13,368 nucleotides of DNA from a virus (lineage: Duplodnaviria > Heunggongvirae > Uroviricota > Caudoviricetes): the IMG/VR virus record IMGVR_UViG_3300029846_000275. One strand, given 5' to 3'. The notes beneath the pieces are model-generated. The model searched no databases and had not been told where the DNA came from. It saw only the letters and a list, made by a program, of their open reading frames with translations. The position numbers were made by a program, and so were the translations under genes. This document shows positions 8,759 through 12,825 of this stretch, piece after piece (the stretch's first letter is position 1; every line of letters begins with the position of its first letter).

Positions 8759-8878
8759 TTAATATTTGACTGTTTTAGCTTCCAGTTGCCGTAACGTCTC
8801 ACGACCACTCTGGCGCACGAGTTCCACCACCTGCCCTTTAATTTTTTCCCGCTCTTCTTGTGTAAAAACTTTTGCCAC
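8759..8878 (-). CDS. Hypothetical small protein (39 aa), GTG start
   Basis: Strong SD (AAGGGGGA) 4-5 nt before GTG at 8878; product VAKVFTQEEREKIKGQVVELVRQSGRETLRQLEAKTVKY; lies 40 nt downstream of the rep stop. Confidence 0.3.
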   Translation of the reverse strand: MAKVFTQEEREKIKGQVVELVRQSGRETLRQLEAKTVKY

Positions 8879-8918
8879 AAGTCCCCCTTAAAATTACCTC
8901 ATGACCTGAAATCAAAAC

Positions 8919-9884
8919 TTATCCTCTGAAACCAGGCGGAATTTCTGTATCCGGTTCAGAAATATGATTCACACAACGCTGTACAGGTGAACGTCCCAGG
9001 CGGATGACCAGTTCGTCCCATTTTTCGCGGAGTTTTGACGGGCTCATGATGTTTTTTACCCAGAATGGATCCCGCTGTACCCGACCAAACATTTCGCAAA
9101 TTTGTCTGTGGCTTCTGCCATCCAGCATCCGCATTGTGCGCACGTCATTGGCCCAGGCTGTCCAGTTAGGCTCTTTTGGTCGCATGATCTCTCCATCGTC
9201 GCTGGCAGCCTGTTCGTAAAGGTTCACGATCCGCCCCCAAATCCACTGCGCACACGCCAAATCCTCCCTGCTACCCCACTGGCGTTTTTTCACACTAAAC
9301 ACAACCGCGTCGGGGTTCCGGGTTAAAAAATCCTGTTCAGTCGTCTGCGGGTCCGGTTGCGAAGCTTCCGGACGAAAAGTGTTTTTATTCTCTGTAGTAA
9401 TCTCTGTTGTATTCTCTGTAAGATCATCAGGCCATTTTGACCCGATGACATTGGGTCGTTTTGAACCAATGGAGCGTTTCATTTTGACCTCTTCCATCGT
9501 GTCATTTTGACCTGATGGAGCGGCGCATTTTGAACCGATGGATTCGTTCAATTTGCCACCATCTAAAAGCTCGCTCCCATAGTTGATCGTGTAGAAATTG
9601 GTCATATCGCGCTTTGATTTATTGAGCTTTTCACAACGCAAAAGCCCCAGCGTTTTCAGACTTGCAAACGCGCGCTTTAACGTTGACTCTGACCAGAATG
9701 GGAACTGTTCCAGCCATTGTTCCGTTGTGTTATAAATCCAGCGAACACCATCACATTCCATACCGGAGTTGGTATCTCTCAACCAGTAGTGCAGTTGTTG
9801 CAAAACAATGGCTTCGTTTAAGCCGATTTTCATTGCCAGCTGCGTGTTTATAACCAGTGGGCGTTCAGCAAAAAGAAGACTCAT
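8919..9884 (-). CDS. Lambdoid O-type replication initiator; the origin iterons lie inside its coding sequence
   Basis: N-terminal HTH-like region; internal repeated IGSK peptide motif encoded by six DNA iterons; position downstream of the cro/cII-like genes; start taken as ATG 9884 (the ORF track uses an upstream TTG at 9938). Confidence 0.75.
   Translation of the reverse strand: MSLLFAERPLVINTQLAMKIGLNEAIVLQQLHYWLRDTNSGMECDGVRWIYNTTEQWLEQFPFWSESTLKRAFASLKTLGLLRCEKLNKSKRDMTNFYTINYGSELLDGGKLNESIGSKCAAPSGQNDTMEEVKMKRSIGSKRPNVIGSKWPDDLTENTTEITTENKNTFRPEASQPDPQTTEQDFLTRNPDAVVFSVKKRQWGSREDLACAQWIWGRIVNLYEQAASDDGEIMRPKEPNWTAWANDVRTMRMLDGRSHRQICEMFGRVQRDPFWVKNIMSPSKLREKWDELVIRLGRSPVQRCVNHISEPDTEIPPGFRG
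9387..9421. repeat. Three ~12-bp A/T-rich direct repeats (ATTCTCTGTAG-like) flanking the iterons; candidate origin unwinding region
   Basis: ATTCTCTGTAG / AATCTCTGTTG / ATTCTCTGTAA immediately downstream of the iterons in the direction of rep transcription, as in the lambda ori layout. Confidence 0.6.
9433..9564. repeat. Replication-origin iterons: six direct repeats of ~20-22 bp at ~23-bp spacing, consensus cATTTTGAcC-GATGGAGCG
   Basis: Copies start near 9433, 9457, 9480, 9503, 9526 and 9549 (the last is degenerate: CAATTTGCCACCATCT); all lie within the rep CDS. Confidence 0.8.
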
Positions 9885-10386
9885 AATTCCATCCAGCTTT
9901 TTGTTGGTATTGCTGTCGATACGCAAGCTTGAAAGCAATTGCTTTTTCTATAAGTTCGTCAGTTTCACGATCTACAACGGCAGGATCTGCAAAAAGCAGT
10001 CCAGATTCCACCACATCGCCATATTCTTTATTTAACCCGGCGATCATGTACGTAATACTTTTTCCATCACTGATCTCACGATACAACCTGAAATCACTAA
10101 TCCGGATAGCCTCCATAATTGCAGGCACTAGCGCTGTGAACTTTTCACGCTTATCCCTGGTGTCGATAGCCTTCCAGCGTTCGAATATCTTCACTCGATT
10201 AACGCTAAGCGCTCGCTGATCAACCGCGCCACCTTCATATGTGACACGCTGAACATCGATGTTCGGGCGCTCTTTCAAAGCCCAGAATGCTTCAGTGATT
10301 AATATCGTCGCCTGCTCCTGTGTCATTCCTGGTCGACATATCCAGGCATCCAGAGCCTCACGAGCCTGTTCAGGAGTGATTTTCAT
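9865..10386 (-). CDS. cII-position ORF (173 aa); possibly YdaT-like
   Basis: ATG at 10386 overlaps the end of the dicC-like gene by 17 nt; the motif KREKFTALVPAIMEAI resembles my recollection of YdaT (REKIQKLIPAIL); family assignment is tentative. Confidence 0.5.
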   Translation of the reverse strand: MKITPEQAREALDAWICRPGMTQEQATILITEAFWALKERPNIDVQRVTYEGGAVDQRALSVNRVKIFERWKAIDTRDKREKFTALVPAIMEAIRISDFRLYREISDGKSITYMIAGLNKEYGDVVESGLLFADPAVVDRETDELIEKAIAFKLAYRQQYQQKAGWNYESSFC

Positions 10387-10597
10387 TGTTCAACCGCCCC
10401 GCCCGCTTCGTCTTACGATATTCGTCATAAACTTTGGGATCATACTGAAGCTCCCCGCCAGATGCCTCCTGTAGACGCATCGCGCGACCTTCAGGAACCA
10501 GTATCCCCCAAGCAGCAACACTTGCCAGTCTCACTCCTGCGGCATTGGCAAGCTTTGTTTTGCTGCCAAAAAAAGTAATTGCGTCAACTTTAAGCAT
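10370..10597 (-). CDS. dicC: Cro-like small HTH regulator, DicC-like (75 aa from the ATG)
   Basis: Divergent from the dicA-like gene; GAGGGGG SD 6 nt upstream of ATG 10597 (the ORF track begins at TTG 10600); HTH segment TKLANAAGVRLASVAAW. Confidence 0.65.
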   Translation of the reverse strand: MLKVDAITFFGSKTKLANAAGVRLASVAAWGILVPEGRAMRLQEASGGELQYDPKVYDEYRKTKRAGRLNNENHS

Positions 10598-10610
10598 CAA
10601 AGCCCCCTCT

Positions 10611-10628
10611 TGTTAGATTTTTCTAACA
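10611..10628. promoter_or_regulatory. Candidate repressor operator: perfect inverted repeat TGTTAGA-N4-TCTAACA in the dicC/dicA divergent intergenic region
   Basis: TGTTAGATTTTTCTAACA; the same 7-bp half-sites recur downstream of dicA. Confidence 0.6.
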
Positions 10629-10677
10629 TTATTGTGCGCGGGATACCTAAGTCAAGAAAAATTAGAATTACCTAACT

Positions 10678-11085
10678 ATGGATACAAGAACCCTAGGCCA
10701 GCGAGTTCTGGCGCGACGAAAAGAATTACGCTTAACACAACGAGAAGCTGCGCGCCTCGCTGGAGTTGCTCACGTCACAATTTCACAATGGGAAAGAGAC
10801 GAAACCCAGCCAGTCGGAAAACGATTGTTTGCTTTAGCGGATGCTCTGAAGTGCTCACCTACATGGCTAATGTTTGGTGACGAAGACAAGGCACCAGTGC
10901 CTGCACAAGAACTTCATGTGGAAACAGAGCTAACTCCCAACCACAAAGAATTGATCGAATTATTCGATGCTCTTCCATCTTCCGAGCAGGAAGCCTTGCT
11001 GTCTGAAATGCGCGCAAGAGTAGAAAACTTCAACAAACTCTTCGAAGAAATGCTTAAAGCGCGTAAAAATAAATCAATAAAATAA
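10678..11085 (+). CDS. dicA: DicA-family XRE/CI-type repressor (135 aa)
   Basis: 135 aa with N-terminal HTH (LTQREAARLAGVAHVTISQWERDETQP) and the motifs CSPTW and EMRARVxNFNKLFEE that I recall from DicA; no SD before the ATG (possibly leaderless). Confidence 0.8.
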   Translation: MDTRTLGQRVLARRKELRLTQREAARLAGVAHVTISQWERDETQPVGKRLFALADALKCSPTWLMFGDEDKAPVPAQELHVETELTPNHKELIELFDALPSSEQEALLSEMRARVENFNKLFEEMLKARKNKSIK

Positions 11086-11121
11086 CATTCTTTTCAAGTG
11101 ATTAGTTGCGCCCACTCTTTT

Positions 11122-11139
11122 TGTTAGACCAATCTAACA
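11122..11139. promoter_or_regulatory. Candidate operator in the dicB-operon promoter region: TGTTAGA-N4-TCTAACA
   Basis: TGTTAGACCAATCTAACA, a perfect 7-bp inverted repeat identical in half-sites to the one at 10611..10628. Confidence 0.6.
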
Positions 11140-11157
11140 AAAAACACTTGCCTCTCA

Positions 11158-11174
11158 TGTTAGGTTATTCTAAA
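11158..11174. promoter_or_regulatory. Third, imperfect operator-like site (TGTTAGG-N4-TCTAAAT)
   Basis: About 36 bp downstream of the operator at 11122; left half-site conserved, right half-site degenerate. Confidence 0.35.
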
Positions 11175-11253
11175 TTACTTTCCATCAAGACACCGCACGG
11201 TGTTCTCAGCAAGCAGTTCCGCTACCCCGGCGTTAAGGGGAAATGAGGTCAGC

Positions 11254-11406
11254 ATGGATACTATCGATCTTGGCAACAGCGAATCTCTGGTATGTGGCGT
11301 GTTCCCCAACCAGGACGGTACGTTCACCGCGATGACATATACCAAAAGCAAAACGTTTAAAACCGAATCTGGCGCGCGTTGCTGGTTAGCCAGAAACACT
11401 GACTGA
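11254..11406 (+). CDS. ydfA: Small protein (50 aa), YdfA-like; first gene of the dicB operon
   Basis: ATG at 11254 with GAGG 5 nt upstream; stop overlaps the next start (TGATG); position matches ydfA of the K-12 dicB operon by synteny. Confidence 0.55.
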   Translation: MDTIDLGNSESLVCGVFPNQDGTFTAMTYTKSKTFKTESGARCWLARNTD

Positions 11407-11417
11407 TGAGGCTGACG

Positions 11418-11783
11418 ATGGAATTTAAAGATTTACCGTCTGATGTACAGAAAACAGCAGCTCATACATTGCATTCTGTGCTGCGAGAAATCGGGAAAGA
11501 TATTGCAAGCGAGCCAGCAAAAGATCTGGCCCGGAAAATCAAGACCGCTTTCGTTGAGCTTTATAATGTTGGCACTGACTCTGAAACTGTCGAGACCAAG
11601 ACCGTAAGTTCACCAATATTCTCACTTGAGCCAGGCGTATTATCAGGTGAAATATGCACCGAGATTTCCAGCGAACTGCTTCCGGTAATACGAGAAGCAA
11701 TTTGCCGTCGCGGTTTGGATGGAAGTTACGATCATGACGTCCTGCAAGTTCTCAGGACAATGGTGACTTCACTGGGGATTTGA
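11418..11783 (+). CDS. Hypothetical protein (121 aa) in the position of ydfB/ydfC of the dicB operon
   Basis: ATG at 11418 with GAGG 7 nt upstream (the ORF track begins at ATG 11406); same strand as ydfA and dicB. Confidence 0.55.
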   Translation: MEFKDLPSDVQKTAAHTLHSVLREIGKDIASEPAKDLARKIKTAFVELYNVGTDSETVETKTVSSPIFSLEPGVLSGEICTEISSELLPVIREAICRRGLDGSYDHDVLQVLRTMVTSLGI

Positions 11784-11952
11784 TCCCTGCGTCCTCTAAC
11801 CTTTTGATATAGCGGTCCTCCAAGAAGCGGTAAATTTTGTCGAAATCATCTTTCCCCTCTGGTTTATTCAGAGGATTACAGGACCCGTAAGTAGCGGCAT
11901 ACATTTCAACCGTTTTATCAAAAATATAAGAGACAAATTCTTCTTTAGTCAT
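11752..11952 (-). CDS. Candidate antisense-oriented small protein (66 aa) inside the dicB operon
   Basis: ATG at 11952 with AAGGAA 8 nt upstream; product MTKEEFVSYIFDKTVEMYAATYGSCNPLNKPEGKDDFDKIYRFLEDRYIKRLEDAGIK... is non-repetitive; 3' end overlaps the 121-aa ORF by about 30 nt. Confidence 0.35.
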   Translation of the reverse strand: MTKEEFVSYIFDKTVEMYAATYGSCNPLNKPEGKDDFDKIYRFLEDRYIKRLEDAGIKSPVKSPLS

Positions 11953-12227
11953 ATAGATTTCCTTCTTGGTTATTCGGGATAAGAAGGATACCACCTCGCC
12001 TGACGTGGTTAAAAGCAGGCACACAACACGAAAGCGCACGGCGAAGTTCGTCTCACTGTACGGTGTCGTTAAATTTAATTCGACCGTGCGCTTCCGGTTG
12101 TGGCAACCCGCGAAATGGCGCGGCGGTAAGTATGGCGGGGTTATTCCTTCCCCGTTGAGGACACCGAGTTGTCAGGTTGACCATACGCTTAAGTGACAAC
12201 CCCGCTGCAACGCCCTCTGTTATCAAT

Positions 12228-12280
12228 TTTCTGGTGACGTTTGGCGGTATCAGTTTTACTCCGTGACTGCTCTGCCGCCG
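12228..12280 (+). ncRNA. dicF: DicF small regulatory RNA (~53 nt)
   Basis: TTTCTGGTGACGTTTGGCGGTATCAGTTTTACTCCGTGACTGCTCTGCCGCC followed by a T-run matches my recollection of DicF; lies between the ydfA-C region and dicB as expected. Confidence 0.85.
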
Positions 12281-12448
12281 TTTTTAAAGTGAATTTTGTG
12301 ATGCGGTGAATGCGGCTAAGCGCACGCGGAACAGTTAAAACCAGTGTTATGGGTGGATTCTCTGTATCCGGCGTTAATTGTTAACTGGTTAACGTCACCT
12401 GGAGGCACCAGGCACTGCATCACAAAATTCATTGTTGAGGACGCGATA

Positions 12449-12637
12449 ATGAAAACGTTATTACCAAACGTTAATACGTCTGAAGGTTGTTTTGAAATTG
12501 GTGTCACTATCAGTAACCCTGTATTTACTGAAGATGCCATTAACAAGAGAAAACAAGAACGGGAGCTATTAAATAAAATATGCATTATTTCAATGCTGGC
12601 TCGTTTACGTCTGATGCCAAAAGGATGTGCACAATGA
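12449..12637 (+). CDS. dicB: Cell-division inhibitor DicB (62 aa)
   Basis: Product MKTLLPNVNTSEGCFEIGVTISNPVFTEDAINKRKQERELLNKICIISMLARLRLMPKGCAQ; GAGGA about 8 nt upstream; the ORF track extends it to an upstream start at 12344. Confidence 0.9.
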   Translation: MKTLLPNVNTSEGCFEIGVTISNPVFTEDAINKRKQERELLNKICIISMLARLRLMPKGCAQ

Positions 12638-12825
12638 ATTCAGCATTTGCGCTTGTTCTGACAGTTTTTCTTGTTTCCGGAGAGCCAGTTGATATTGCAG
12701 TCAGTGTTCACAGGACAATGCAGGAGTGTATGACTGCAGCAACCGAACAGAAAATTCCCGGTAACTGTTACCCGGTCGATAAAGTTATTCACCAGGATAA
12801 TATCGAAATCCCGGCAGGTCTTTAA
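12634..12825 (+). CDS. ydfD: YdfD lysis protein (63 aa), start overlapping the dicB stop (ATGA)
   Basis: Product MNSAFALVLTVFLVSGEPVDIAVSVHRTMQECMTAATEQKIPGNCYPVDKVIHQDNIEIPAGL with an N-terminal hydrophobic helix. Confidence 0.85.
   Translation: MNSAFALVLTVFLVSGEPVDIAVSVHRTMQECMTAATEQKIPGNCYPVDKVIHQDNIEIPAGL

What the first reader, a model, noticed from the sequence alone, without database searches (positions are those of the whole stretch)
9383..9884. O-type replication origin with six iterons inside the rep gene, but no helicase-loader partner
Six ~20-bp direct repeats at ~23-bp spacing followed by three A/T-rich 12-bp repeats sit inside the rep coding sequence, reproducing the lambda O/ori arrangement. 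The gene expected next (P/DnaC-like loader) is missing: only a 39-aa ORF and then right-end DNA follow, implying a second deletion that removed the loader, nin region, Q and lysis genes. The origin may still be recognised by the initiator.
Basis: seen in the sequence. Interest (0 to 1): 0.5.

Follow-up and report, generated by a model that had tools for sequence, protein, structure and literature searches.

The report
Prophage origin inside a loader-less initiator gene
This is the intact replication origin and initiator gene of a decayed lambda-like prophage in E. coli; the "missing" helicase loader was never next to this gene, because complete relatives also lack one and the initiator ends in a peptide shared with the host restart protein DnaT.

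Summary
Six 17-bp iterons (9433-9565, spaced 23-24 bp) and three 12-bp A/T-rich repeats (9386-9421) lie inside an intact 321-aa rep gene (8919-9884, minus strand). Synonymous sites are unusually conserved there, and distant homologues carry different iterons at the same place. This is a lambda-type origin, not just a repetitive linker.

Rep is O-type in its C-terminal domain (34% identity to lambda O, E 5e-27). Its N-terminal winged-helix-like domain is not Pfam Phage_rep_O. Its last 20 residues match the flexible tail of DnaT.

A deletion at 8770/8771 did remove about 11.4 kb (nin-like genes, Q, lysis). It did not remove a loader:
- The 39-aa ORF is the start of the DUF977 gene, which directly follows rep in 57 of 81 close relatives.
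- Two complete phage genomes hold no DnaC, lambda P or DnaB homologue.
- In 21 relatives a DnaC paralogue sits between rep and DUF977.

Across viral contigs, DnaT-type tails are followed by a DnaC-type loader (37) or none (34), never by lambda P. Lambda-type tails are always followed by P (6 of 6). My inference is that Rep uses host DnaB-DnaC. The locus itself is ordinary; the tail-loader link is the interesting by-product.

The parts
8919..9884 (-). rep gene: 321-aa O-type replication initiator (stop codon 8919-8921)
   Evidence: ORF and translation. PHROG 391 'replication initiation O-like', E 1.9e-92. C-terminal half 34% identical to lambda O, E 5e-27. 100% identical products in L004-L007.
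9561..9884 (-). N-terminal domain (residues 1-108), the presumed iteron-binding winged-helix domain
   Evidence: AF2 model shows H-H-b-b-H-H-b-b at residues 14-100, pLDDT 63-81. Weak Foldseek hits to the N-terminal domains of RepA_N-type plasmid initiators 4pql, 5kbj and 4pt7, E 0.06-0.4. No Pfam Phage_rep_O hit.
9433..9565 (-). Six iterons, consensus TCCATCgGgTCAAAATG, spaced 23-24 bp
   Evidence: Nearly invariant among 82 related genes; iteron 6 is identical in all 82.
9386..9421 (-). Three tandem A/T-rich 12-mers (ACAGAGAwTAc), the candidate DNA-unwinding element
   Evidence: The same triple 12-mer follows different iterons in homologues of 46-57% identity: L087, L090, L091.
9345..9569 (-). 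Stretch of rep under DNA-level constraint (origin core)
   Evidence: Variable third codon positions 18/75 here against 155/246 elsewhere, Fisher p 2.7e-9. First and second positions are more variable here than elsewhere.
8997..9338 (-). C-terminal helical domain (residues 183-296), homologous to the lambda O C-terminal domain
   Evidence: BLASTP E 5e-27. hhalign probability 99.6% against lambda O residues 173-273.
8922..8981 (-). C-terminal DnaT-type tail QRCVNHISEPDTEIPPGFRG (residues 302-321)
   Evidence: 70% identical to DnaT residues 160-179 and 68% to the Rac YdaU tail. Protein-level purifying selection in loader-less loci: 12/20 third positions vary against 4/40 first and second positions.
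8759..8878 (-). 39-aa ORF: truncated 5' end (36 codons) of the DUF977/Ren-like gene
   Evidence: Pfam PF06163 profile positions 1-36, E 1.9e-6. PHROG 142. 100% identical to residues 1-36 of the HannyBb protein.
8770..8771 (.). Deletion junction 1: DUF977 codon ~36 joined to the ynfO-ydfO intergenic DNA of the Qin-type right arm
   Evidence: At most 1 nt of microhomology. Found in none of the loci held nor in any complete RefSeq E. coli genome.
7560..7574 (.). Deletion junction 2: small-terminase (Nu1-like) region joined to the middle of the tape-measure gene
   Evidence: Mapping on HannyBb. Both flanking alignments include window 7560-7574.
9865..10386 (-). cII-like gene (YdaT family) whose end overlaps the rep start by 20 nt
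   Evidence: Pfam YdaT_toxin and PHROG 163.
10370..10600 (-). cro-like gene (P22_Cro / DicC type)
10628..10655 (-). pR-like promoter TTGACT-16-AATAAT that reads cro, cII-like and rep through the origin
   Evidence: Consensus scan only.
10678..11085 (+). DicA/CI-type repressor gene, divergent from cro
   Evidence: Pfam HTH_3; annotation in EC93.

Best explanation
Window 9383-9884 covers the N-terminal half of an intact initiator gene (rep, 8919-9884, minus strand) and the replication origin embedded in it. The gene belongs to a Qin/mEp460-type lambdoid prophage remnant at the ydfJ locus.

Proposed mechanism:
1. Transcription from the pR-like promoter (10655-10628) through cro and the cII-like gene makes Rep and also crosses the origin.
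2. The winged-helix-like N-domain of Rep binds the six iterons.
3. The resulting nucleoprotein complex destabilises the adjacent triple 12-mer A/T-rich element.
4. The lambda-O-like C-domain and the flexible DnaT-type tail bring in the replicative helicase.

This replicon type does not need a phage-encoded loader. It takes the host DnaB-DnaC complex, most likely through the tail, and some close relatives carry their own DnaC paralogue as an optional extra. The deletion at 8770/8771 truncated DUF977 and removed the nin-like, Q and lysis genes, but left the pR-cro-cII-rep/ori unit complete. The remnant could therefore still fire in situ if derepressed.

Shown here: the repeats, their position, DNA-level constraint on them, homology to lambda O, the tail match, the deletion map, the loader-less state of complete relatives, and the link between tail type and loader type.

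Inferred: iteron binding, unwinding at the 12-mers, use of host DnaB-DnaC, the tail as the docking element, and present-day activity.
For: Repeats are real and far above chance.

Geometry matches lambda. Lambda iterons lie at gene nt 349-433 with A/T-rich DNA next to them; here iterons lie at nt 320-452 and the 12-mers at nt 464-499.

DNA-level constraint. Variable third positions are 18/75 in the origin against 155/246 outside, p 2.7e-9, while first and second positions are more variable there.

Homologues of 39-57% identity have periodic repeats of different sequence at the same gene position: 23-24 bp with this N-domain type and 15 bp with HTH_36-type N-domains.

The C-domain is homologous to lambda O.

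Loader-less state is native:
- DUF977 starts at +44 nt in 57 of 81 close relatives and in the window. The DnaC paralogue, when present, lies at +10 nt between rep and DUF977.
- HannyBb and mEp460_ev081 whole genomes hold no DnaC, lambda P or DnaB homologue.
- mEp460_4F5 also has none between cro and Q.
- EC93 carries the same module at 100% identity with an intact DUF977 and no loader.

Tail:
- It matches DnaT and Rac YdaU, both of which are followed by DnaC-type genes.
- In an unbiased scan of viral contigs for IPPGFRG-stop, 75 tail proteins in 9 clusters are followed by a DnaC-type gene in 37 cases, nothing in 34, lambda P in 0 and DnaB in 0.
- Six O-type proteins with lambda-type tails are all followed by lambda P.
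- The tail is under protein-level purifying selection in loader-less loci.
Against: - No experiment shows that this origin fires or that Rep binds the iterons.
- The N-domain has no Pfam Phage_rep_O match. The structure model is weak (mean pLDDT 55.6) and the fold matches are not significant (best E 0.06).
- No DnaT-DnaC interaction has been documented (PMC5778457).
- The 2026 preprimosome structures place the DnaT C-terminal domain on PriA and suggest the N-terminal domain as the DnaB/DnaC recruiter (PMC13377028). The tail's partner could therefore be PriA or something else.
- DopC combines an O-like N-terminus with a DnaT C-terminal motif and is paired with a lambda-P-like DopE (PMC5509034). 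This is a possible counter-example to a strict tail-loader rule.
- 'None within 3.5 kb' does not exclude a loader elsewhere on incomplete contigs.
- The viability of HannyBb and the mEp460 derivatives is taken from their deposition as phage genomes, not tested here.
- The window's deletion junction is unique, so the activity of this particular remnant is unknown.
Confidence: 0.7

Rival explanations
1. One reading: the module once had a P/DnaC-type loader gene right after rep, and the deletion ending at 8770 removed it. On this view the origin is orphaned and cannot load a helicase.
For: 21 of 81 close relatives (Rep 92-95% identical) do have a DnaC paralogue immediately after rep. Lambda, Rac and many lambdoid prophages pair O with a loader (PMC2669165).
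Against: The window keeps the rep-DUF977 intergenic spacing (+44 nt) and the first 36 DUF977 codons, which is the loader-less arrangement. In loader-bearing relatives the loader lies between rep and DUF977. Every relative with Rep at 96% identity or above lacks it. Two complete phage genomes lack any loader.
Confidence: 0.05
2. Same origin and initiator, but the DnaT-type tail docks on PriA (or PriA-PriB), not on DnaC. Rep would mimic DnaT and assemble a restart-type primosome at the opened origin, and that primosome would then load DnaB.
For: The only structurally defined partner of the DnaT C-terminal region is PriA (PMC13377028). No DnaT-DnaC contact is documented (PMC5778457). The tail is shared with DnaT.
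Against: On phage initiators the tail co-occurs with phage-encoded DnaC paralogues (37 of 71 loci) and never with lambda P. That pattern is expected if the tail reads the loader type and is not obviously expected for a PriA contact. The text I could read does not say which DnaT residues touch PriA. hhalign finds no homology to the DnaT three-helix bundle beyond the tail.
Confidence: 0.15
3. The rep/ori unit is a dead relic. The sequence is intact only because the deletion is recent, and it no longer functions, for example because a factor encoded in the deleted DNA was required or because the repressor keeps it permanently silent.
For: The prophage has lost 11.4 kb and about 10.4 kb in two deletions. 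The junction is unique to this window. A repressor gene is present. Natural 290-aa Rep variants that lost four iterons show that such origins do decay in prophages.
Against: Rep is 100% identical to the alleles in other contigs, and all six iterons and all three 12-mers carry the majority sequence. The genes following rep differ among loader-less clades (DUF977, DUF1627, Dam, ParB-like). No conserved downstream partner is therefore evident.
Confidence: 0.2
4. The repeats are only a repetitive peptide linker (…SIGSK…SIGSK…VIGSK…TENTTEITTEN) and have no function as DNA.
For: The repeats do encode a low-complexity, predicted-disordered linker (residues 109-175, pLDDT below 50).
Against: The 23-bp period is not a multiple of 3, so successive iterons are read in different frames. 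Synonymous positions are more conserved than non-synonymous ones in this stretch only. Iteron sequence changes with the N-domain type across clades while the position is kept.
Confidence: 0.02

Closest known systems
Phage lambda O protein and ori-lambda
   Same: The origin lies inside the initiator gene, in the segment coding the inter-domain linker. Several iterons spaced 20-24 bp are followed by A/T-rich DNA (lambda annotation). The gene follows pR-cro-cII. The C-terminal domain is homologous (E 5e-27, hhalign 99.6%).
   Different: Six iterons instead of four, with unrelated sequence. The N-domain is not Pfam Phage_rep_O. The A/T-rich element is a triple 12-mer. No P gene follows. The lambda-type C-terminal tail (…TNTDWIYGVDL) is replaced by a DnaT-type tail.
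Rac prophage YdaU-YdaV(-YdaW) module and other lambdoid modules with DnaC-type loaders (e.g. O157 Sakai Sp4, Sp10, Sp12; PMC2669165)
   Same: YdaS/YdaT-like regulators lie upstream, the initiator ends in the same tail (…VNTVSLPDSAIPPGFRG), and a DUF977-family gene lies downstream. 21 of 81 close relatives of this Rep carry a YdaV-like DnaC paralogue.
   Different: YdaU is a DUF1376 protein that shares only the tail with this Rep. The window and its nearest relatives have no DnaC paralogue.
E. coli DnaT (primosomal protein i)
   Same: [quoted passage not shown]
   Different: There is no homology to the DnaT N-terminal domain or three-helix bundle. DnaT is not an origin-binding initiator. The label 'Primosomal protein I' on the phage gene in LR597641 and LR595868 rests on the tail alone.
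DopC/DopE (domesticated lambda O/P; Brezellec et al. 2017, PMC5509034)
   Same: A chimera of an O-like N-terminus with a DnaT C-terminal motif.
   Different: DopC has lost its iterons, is chromosomal, and is paired with a lambda-P-type protein. Here the lambda-O-type C-domain is kept, the iterons are present, and no P is present.
Iteron plasmids whose Rep uses host DnaB-DnaC (pSC101, R6K, RK2 in E. coli; my own knowledge) and lambda-dv plasmids
   Same: What it would work like: a single element-encoded initiator plus iterons and an A/T-rich element, with the helicase and loader supplied by the host. The pR-cro-cII-rep/ori unit left in the window corresponds to the lambda-dv replicon minus P.
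   Different: No DnaA box lies near this origin. It is not homologous to those plasmid Rep proteins, beyond weak fold resemblance to the RepA_N N-terminal domain.

Membership tests
Lambda-type origin embedded in an O-type initiator gene | Array of direct repeats (iterons) inside the initiator ORF, in the inter-domain linker region | tested here: met
   Six iterons at gene nt 320-452; lambda has them at nt 349-433.
Lambda-type origin embedded in an O-type initiator gene | A/T-rich segment immediately after the iterons in the direction of transcription | tested here: met
   Triple 12-mer at 9386-9421, A+T 0.70-0.72, the maximum within the gene.
Lambda-type origin embedded in an O-type initiator gene | C-terminal domain homologous to the lambda O C-terminal domain | tested here: met
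   BLASTP 34% identity, E 5e-27; hhalign probability 99.6%.
Lambda-type origin embedded in an O-type initiator gene | N-terminal domain of the Pfam Phage_rep_O family | tested here: not met
   No hit at E up to 0.1. The N-domain matches PHROG 391/6493/428 initiator families and looks winged-helix-like in a low-confidence model.
Lambda-type origin embedded in an O-type initiator gene | Lambda P-type loader gene directly downstream | tested here: not met
   Absent from the window, from 81 close relatives and from two complete genomes.
Lambda-type origin embedded in an O-type initiator gene | The repeats are constrained as DNA and are present in homologues | tested here: met
   Third-position variability 18/75 against 155/246, p 2.7e-9. 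Repeats at the same position in 12 further homologues.
Lambda-type origin embedded in an O-type initiator gene | The initiator binds the iterons and the origin fires | not testable with these tools
   Needs EMSA or footprinting and a mini-replicon assay.
Initiator + DnaC-type loader module (Rac YdaU-YdaV type) | DnaC/IstB-type AAA+ gene directly after the initiator gene | tested here: not met
   Not in the window or in relatives with Rep at 96% identity or above. Present at +10 nt in 21 of 81 relatives with 92-95% identity.
Initiator + DnaC-type loader module (Rac YdaU-YdaV type) | Initiator ends in the …(S/T)xPDxxIPPGFRG tail | tested here: met
DnaT (primosomal protein i) | C-terminal flexible tail motif | tested here: met
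   NF002770 positions 160-179; PDB 2ru8, 6aep, 9zbt.
DnaT (primosomal protein i) | DnaT three-helix-bundle C-terminal domain and N-terminal oligomerisation domain | tested here: not met
   hhalign aligns only 18 tail residues. The whole-protein NCBIfam score is 16.3 against a cutoff of 201.
Qin/mEp460-type lambdoid prophage (context) | Synteny ydfJ'-ydfK-pinQ-tfaQ-tail genes … DicA/DicC-type switch, DicF, DicB | tested here: met
   Window 1-8770 is 100% identical to the Qin region of strain 14EC033. DicF RNA lies at 12229-12280. Annotation of the EC93 prophage agrees.

The most novel reading that the evidence does not exclude
The roughly 20-residue C-terminal tail (…SxPDxxIPPGFRG) may be a portable docking peptide for DnaC-type helicase loaders, or for the DnaB-DnaC complex.

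Support from this work:
- The tail has been grafted onto at least six unrelated initiator architectures and onto DnaT.
- It decides which loader an origin uses. Lambda-type tails go with P, and DnaT-type tails go with a DnaC-type loader.
- It lets lambdoid phages drop their own loader and live on host DnaC.

If true, it would also identify the long-sought element through which DnaT hands the restart primosome to DnaB-DnaC.
Probability: 0.35. Interest if true: 0.7.

Novelty: new member of a known kind. Interest (0 to 1): 0.4.

Why it matters
For this locus the result is a correction. The remnant keeps a complete replicon (promoter, cro, cII-like gene, initiator and origin). It should not be scored as replication-dead just because no loader gene is present. 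A derepressed remnant of this kind could over-replicate the neighbouring chromosome.

More generally, annotation pipelines and prophage 'intactness' calls that expect an O-P pair will misjudge this common enterobacterial module. Thousands of members exist, mostly labelled 'hypothetical protein', with no Pfam domain.

The by-product is a strict association between the initiator's C-terminal tail type and the loader type. The DnaT-type tail is also conserved where no phage loader exists. This gives a concrete, testable handle on an open question stated in the 2026 preprimosome paper: how DnaT recruits DnaB/DnaC.

Tried and rejected
- Pfam and NCBIfam on Rep gave nothing useful apart from the DnaT tail. 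PHROGs gave the family.
- A PDB sequence search returned only the tail match.
- hhalign of a 16-sequence Rep alignment against DnaT and YdaU tested for deeper homology. Only the tail aligns, so I dropped the idea of an 'O-DnaT fusion' at domain level.
- The AF2 model was poor, built from a shallow alignment of sequences at least 68% identical to the window's Rep, and gave mean pLDDT 55.6. The fold searches were indicative at best. I do not rest anything on them.
- I looked for DnaA boxes near the origin and found none.
- I searched the literature for the tail motif (PPGFRG), 'initiator-solo', and DUF977 with replication. All returned zero papers. My recollection that Weigel and Seitz (2006) describe initiator-only phage modules could therefore not be verified. 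Only their ILH-type terminology is confirmed, second-hand.
- I read the 2026 preprimosome paper for the role of the DnaT tail. The text does not name the residues at the PriA interface.
- I considered DUF977 as a cryptic loader and rejected it. It is also present after the DnaC paralogue in loader-bearing relatives, and it is replaced by unrelated genes in other loader-less clades.
- I looked for the window's deletion junction in 5,426 E. coli genomes and in all loci held, and did not find it.
- Three of the 81 loci (L049, L057, L058) have neither a DUF977 nor a DnaC-type gene after rep. I did not examine them further.
Full report
**What is in the sequence**

The finding's interval lies on the antisense strand of a 966-nt ORF. 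This rep gene runs on the minus strand from the ATG at 9884 to the stop at 8919-8921 and encodes 321 aa.

Read on the rep strand, six related 17-mers occur:
- iteron 1, 9549-9565
- iteron 2, 9526-9542
- iteron 3, 9503-9519
- iteron 4, 9480-9496
- iteron 5, 9457-9473
- iteron 6, 9433-9449

Start-to-start spacing is 23, 23, 23, 23 and 24 bp. The consensus is TCCATCgGgTCAAAATG. TRF finds the 23-bp period. Four copies match the consensus with at most 3 mismatches, against 0.04 expected, and none of 200 shuffles reaches four. Iterons 1 and 4 are degenerate in their left half.

Directly after iteron 6 come three tandem 12-mers (ACAGAGAwTAc) at 9386-9421. This is the most A/T-rich part of the gene, at 0.70-0.72. 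The only caveat is that the iteron core is about 17 bp and two of the six copies are weaker.

**Is it an origin or just a repetitive linker?**

Three results argue for a DNA element.

1. A 23-bp period puts successive iterons in different reading frames.

2. Synonymous sites are conserved. I compared 59 distinct alleles from 82 genes whose Rep is at least 92% identical.
 - Third-codon-position diversity falls to 0.013-0.029 across gene nt 316-540 (window 9569-9345), against 0.05-0.39 elsewhere.
 - First and second positions are, if anything, more variable there.
 - Variable third positions number 18/75 inside against 155/246 outside (Fisher p 2.7e-9). Variable first and second positions number 37/150 against 68/492.
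 - Iteron 6 is identical in all 82 genes.

3. Homologues of only 39-57% identity have periodic repeats at the same gene position but of different sequence.
 - GGGCAAAaCCCA at a 23-bp period in L087.
 - A 15-bp period in proteins with HTH_36-type N-domains, such as L088.
 - These are followed by A/T-rich DNA.

The triple ACAGAGA 12-mer itself is conserved at the DNA level in four clades that have different iterons.

The geometry matches lambda. There the annotated iterons lie at O gene nt 349-433, spaced 20-24 bp, with A/T-rich DNA next to them.

**What Rep is**

- Pfam gives no Phage_rep_O hit. PHROG 391 'replication initiation O-like' matches end to end at E 1.9e-92.
- BLASTP against lambda O aligns Rep 147-294 with O 135-270 at 34% identity, E 5e-27.
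- A 16-sequence profile gives hhalign probability 99.6% over the C-domain only.
- An AF2 model is weak (mean pLDDT 55.6). It shows a helix-helix-strand-strand-helix-helix-strand-strand N-domain (residues 14-100), a disordered segment (109-175) that the iterons and 12-mers encode, a helical C-domain (183-296) and a disordered tail.
- The best PDB fold matches are N-terminal domains of RepA_N-type plasmid initiators, but they are not significant (E 0.06-0.4).
- The family is large and modular. HMMER finds 12,364 cluster representatives at E up to 0.001, with the N- and C-domains each found in other combinations.
- Close members are mostly annotated 'hypothetical protein' with no Pfam domain.

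**The tail**

The last 20 residues (QRCVNHISEPDTEIPPGFRG) are 70% identical to the C-terminus of E. coli DnaT and 68% identical to that of Rac YdaU. Profile comparison shows that nothing else in Rep is homologous to either protein.

[quoted passage not shown] **The 'missing loader'**

The 39-aa ORF after rep (8759-8878) is the first 36 codons of a DUF977/Ren-like gene. I surveyed 81 other loci with Rep at least 92% identical (80 IMG/VR contigs plus phage HannyBb):
- 57 have DUF977 starting 44 nt after the last rep codon, as in the window. This group includes every locus with Rep at 96% identity or above.
- 21 have a YdaV-like DnaC paralogue at +10 nt, followed by a YdaW/DUF977 gene.
- 3 have neither.

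Other evidence that the loader-less state is native:
- The complete genomes of HannyBb (45.3 kb) and mEp460_ev081 (45.9 kb) give no tblastn hit to DnaC, YdaV, three lambda-P-type proteins or DnaB beyond noise.
- Pfam on the HannyBb early genes finds DUF977, QueH, DUF968, DicB and an exonuclease, but no loader.
- mEp460_4F5 has a 69%-identical Rep with the same iterons and 12-mers. It has no loader between cro and Q.
- mEp460 was one of the phages sequenced in a study which reports that its 26 focus phages complete both the lytic and lysogenic cycles (PMC9836094). I did not verify whether mEp460 is among those 26, nor how the two derivative records relate to the reference phage.
- E. coli EC93 carries the window's 8771-11000 at 100% identity with an intact DUF977 and no loader.

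The loader-less arrangement is thus the native state of this module, and the deletion did not create it.

**The deletions**

I mapped the window on HannyBb:
- Window 10501-8770 equals HannyBb 30703-32434.
- Window 8743-7560 equals HannyBb 43802-44974.
- Window 7574-5000 equals HannyBb 10092-12657.

Deletion 1 has its junction at 8770/8771 with at most 1 nt of microhomology. It removed about 11.4 kb: the rest of DUF977, the nin-like genes, Q, the lysis genes and the cold-shock and gnsB genes.

Deletion 2 has its junction within 7560-7574. It removed about 10.4 kb: the terminase, head and tail-shaft genes and the 5' part of the tape-measure gene.

Window 1-8770 is 100% identical to the Qin-type region of strain 14EC033. 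No complete RefSeq E. coli genome, and no locus I fetched, has junction 1.

**How helicase loading most likely works**

I asked whether the tail type tracks the loader type.

O-type proteins with lambda-like tails (…D-x-x-T-x-W…) from five clades of at most 50% identity, plus lambda itself, are all followed by a Phage_lambda_P gene.

Proteins with the DnaT-type tail from seven such clades gave:
- a DnaC-type gene in one case;
- no recognisable loader in five;
- an unidentified 137-aa ORF on a 1.5-kb contig in one.

I then ran an unbiased scan of IMG/VR for IPPGFRG followed by a stop codon. It returned 80 loci. The 75 tail-bearing proteins of at least 150 aa fall into 9 clusters covering at least six architectures:
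- this Rep family;
- a 320-aa variant;
- a 356-aa family that shares only the tail;
- YdaU/DUF1376;
- DnaT-CTD-like proteins;
- others.

Within the next 3.5 kb, 37 are followed by a DnaC-type gene, 34 by nothing recognisable, 0 by a lambda-P type and 0 by a DnaB type. Four had too little flanking DNA.

In the 60 loci of the window's clade that lack a DnaC-type gene (the 57 plus the 3 with neither), the tail is under protein-level purifying selection. In its last 20 codons, 12 of 20 third positions vary but only 4 of 40 first and second positions do, and IPPGFRG is invariant. The tail therefore has a job that does not depend on a phage loader.

The simplest reading is that the tail engages a DnaC-type loader, phage-encoded where one is present and otherwise the host's. 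This replicon would then run on host DnaB-DnaC, much as iteron plasmids do in E. coli (the plasmid comparison is from my own knowledge).

This is an inference from co-occurrence, and there are caveats:
- The only structurally defined partner of the DnaT C-terminal region is PriA. The authors of that work favour the DnaT N-terminal domain as the DnaB/DnaC recruiter (PMC13377028).
- DopC, an O-like N-terminus with a DnaT C-terminal motif, is paired with a lambda-P-type DopE (PMC5509034).

**State of the remnant**

A pR-like promoter (10655-10628), cro-like and cII-like genes, rep and the whole origin are intact. A DicA-type repressor gene lies divergent from them. No DnaA box is nearby.

What remains corresponds to a lambda-dv-type replicon without P. 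If the module does not need a phage loader, the remnant may still be able to fire when derepressed. Whether it does so is untested.

**Comparison with known systems, and verdict**

In architecture this is a lambda-type origin-in-initiator. It is a member of the O family by its C-domain, but it has a non-Phage_rep_O N-domain and no P partner.

It is related by tail and by context (YdaS/YdaT-like regulators, DUF977) to Rac-type initiator plus DnaC-loader modules, of which it is a loader-less form. It is not a DnaT.

Lambdoid prophages with lambda-type, DnaC-type and DnaB-type partners of O are documented (PMC2669165). I could not verify from the papers available whether loader-less modules have been formally described.

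The locus itself is an ordinary, already-sequenced module in a decayed prophage. The correction about the loader and the link between tail type and loader type are what is worth keeping.

Noticed in passing
P0016-P0021 (290-aa Rep variants) compared with window 9434-9526: Several E. coli contigs encode a Rep that lacks exactly residues 116-146 (31 aa, 93 bp, equal to 23+23+23+24). This is an in-frame loss of four iterons by recombination between iterons 2 and 6. It resembles the classical in-frame ori-minus deletions of lambda (my own knowledge) and probably marks origin-dead prophages.
   Followed up: partly
window 9386-9421; P0026; L087, L090, L091, L096, L224: The triple 12-mer ACAGAGAnTAC is conserved as DNA across clades that have different iterons. 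It coincides with a mosaic breakpoint: P0026 is identical to the window's Rep through residue ~167 and then switches to a different C-domain and tail. It may serve both as the unwinding element and as the recombination joint between the 'N-domain + iterons' module and the 'C-domain + tail (+ loader)' module.
   Followed up: partly
L151, L160, L167, L175 (IMG/VR): These contigs encode phage proteins of 270-275 aa whose C-terminal ~95 residues are 61-63% identical to DnaT residues 83/86-179 (bundle plus tail). No loader gene lies within 3.5 kb. They are candidate phage relatives or sources of DnaT.
   Followed up: no
L104 and 22 similar loci (IMG/VR): A ~356-aa protein family shares nothing with Rep except the 20-residue tail (NNQRCVNHISEPDnEIPPGFRG, 95-100% identical to the window's tail). 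It is mostly loader-less: 17 with none, 4 with a DnaC-type gene. The near-identity of the tail on an unrelated body suggests recent exchange of the tail-coding segment.
   Followed up: no
window 12229-12280 (+) and 3340-3538 (-): Rfam finds DicF sRNA (72.5 bits) and the IS009 RNA family (226.8 bits). This fits a Qin-type prophage that retains the dicBF region.
   Followed up: no
window 7560-7574: This is the second deletion junction, joining the Nu1-like small-terminase region to the middle of the tape-measure gene. Both flanking alignments to HannyBb include these 15 nt, suggesting recombination at a short shared sequence. The 734-aa ORF 5623-7827 runs across the junction.
   Followed up: partly
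P0001, P0003, P0004 (448 aa): Some database entries fuse the YdaT-like cII gene and rep into one 448-aa product carrying PF06254. In the window the two ORFs overlap by 20 nt in different frames, so these are probably frameshifts or annotation artefacts.
   Followed up: no
LR597641.1 and LR595868.1 annotations: The rep gene is labelled 'Primosomal protein I' (that is, DnaT) in both mEp460-derived records. The label rests only on the 20-residue tail and is misleading.
   Followed up: yes
window 1-1284 (-): ydfJ is truncated at the prophage boundary, annotated 'missing N-terminus' in 14EC033. It is followed by ynfT, ydfK, pinQ, tfaQ and tail-gene remnants. This places the element at the Qin attachment region.
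   Followed up: no
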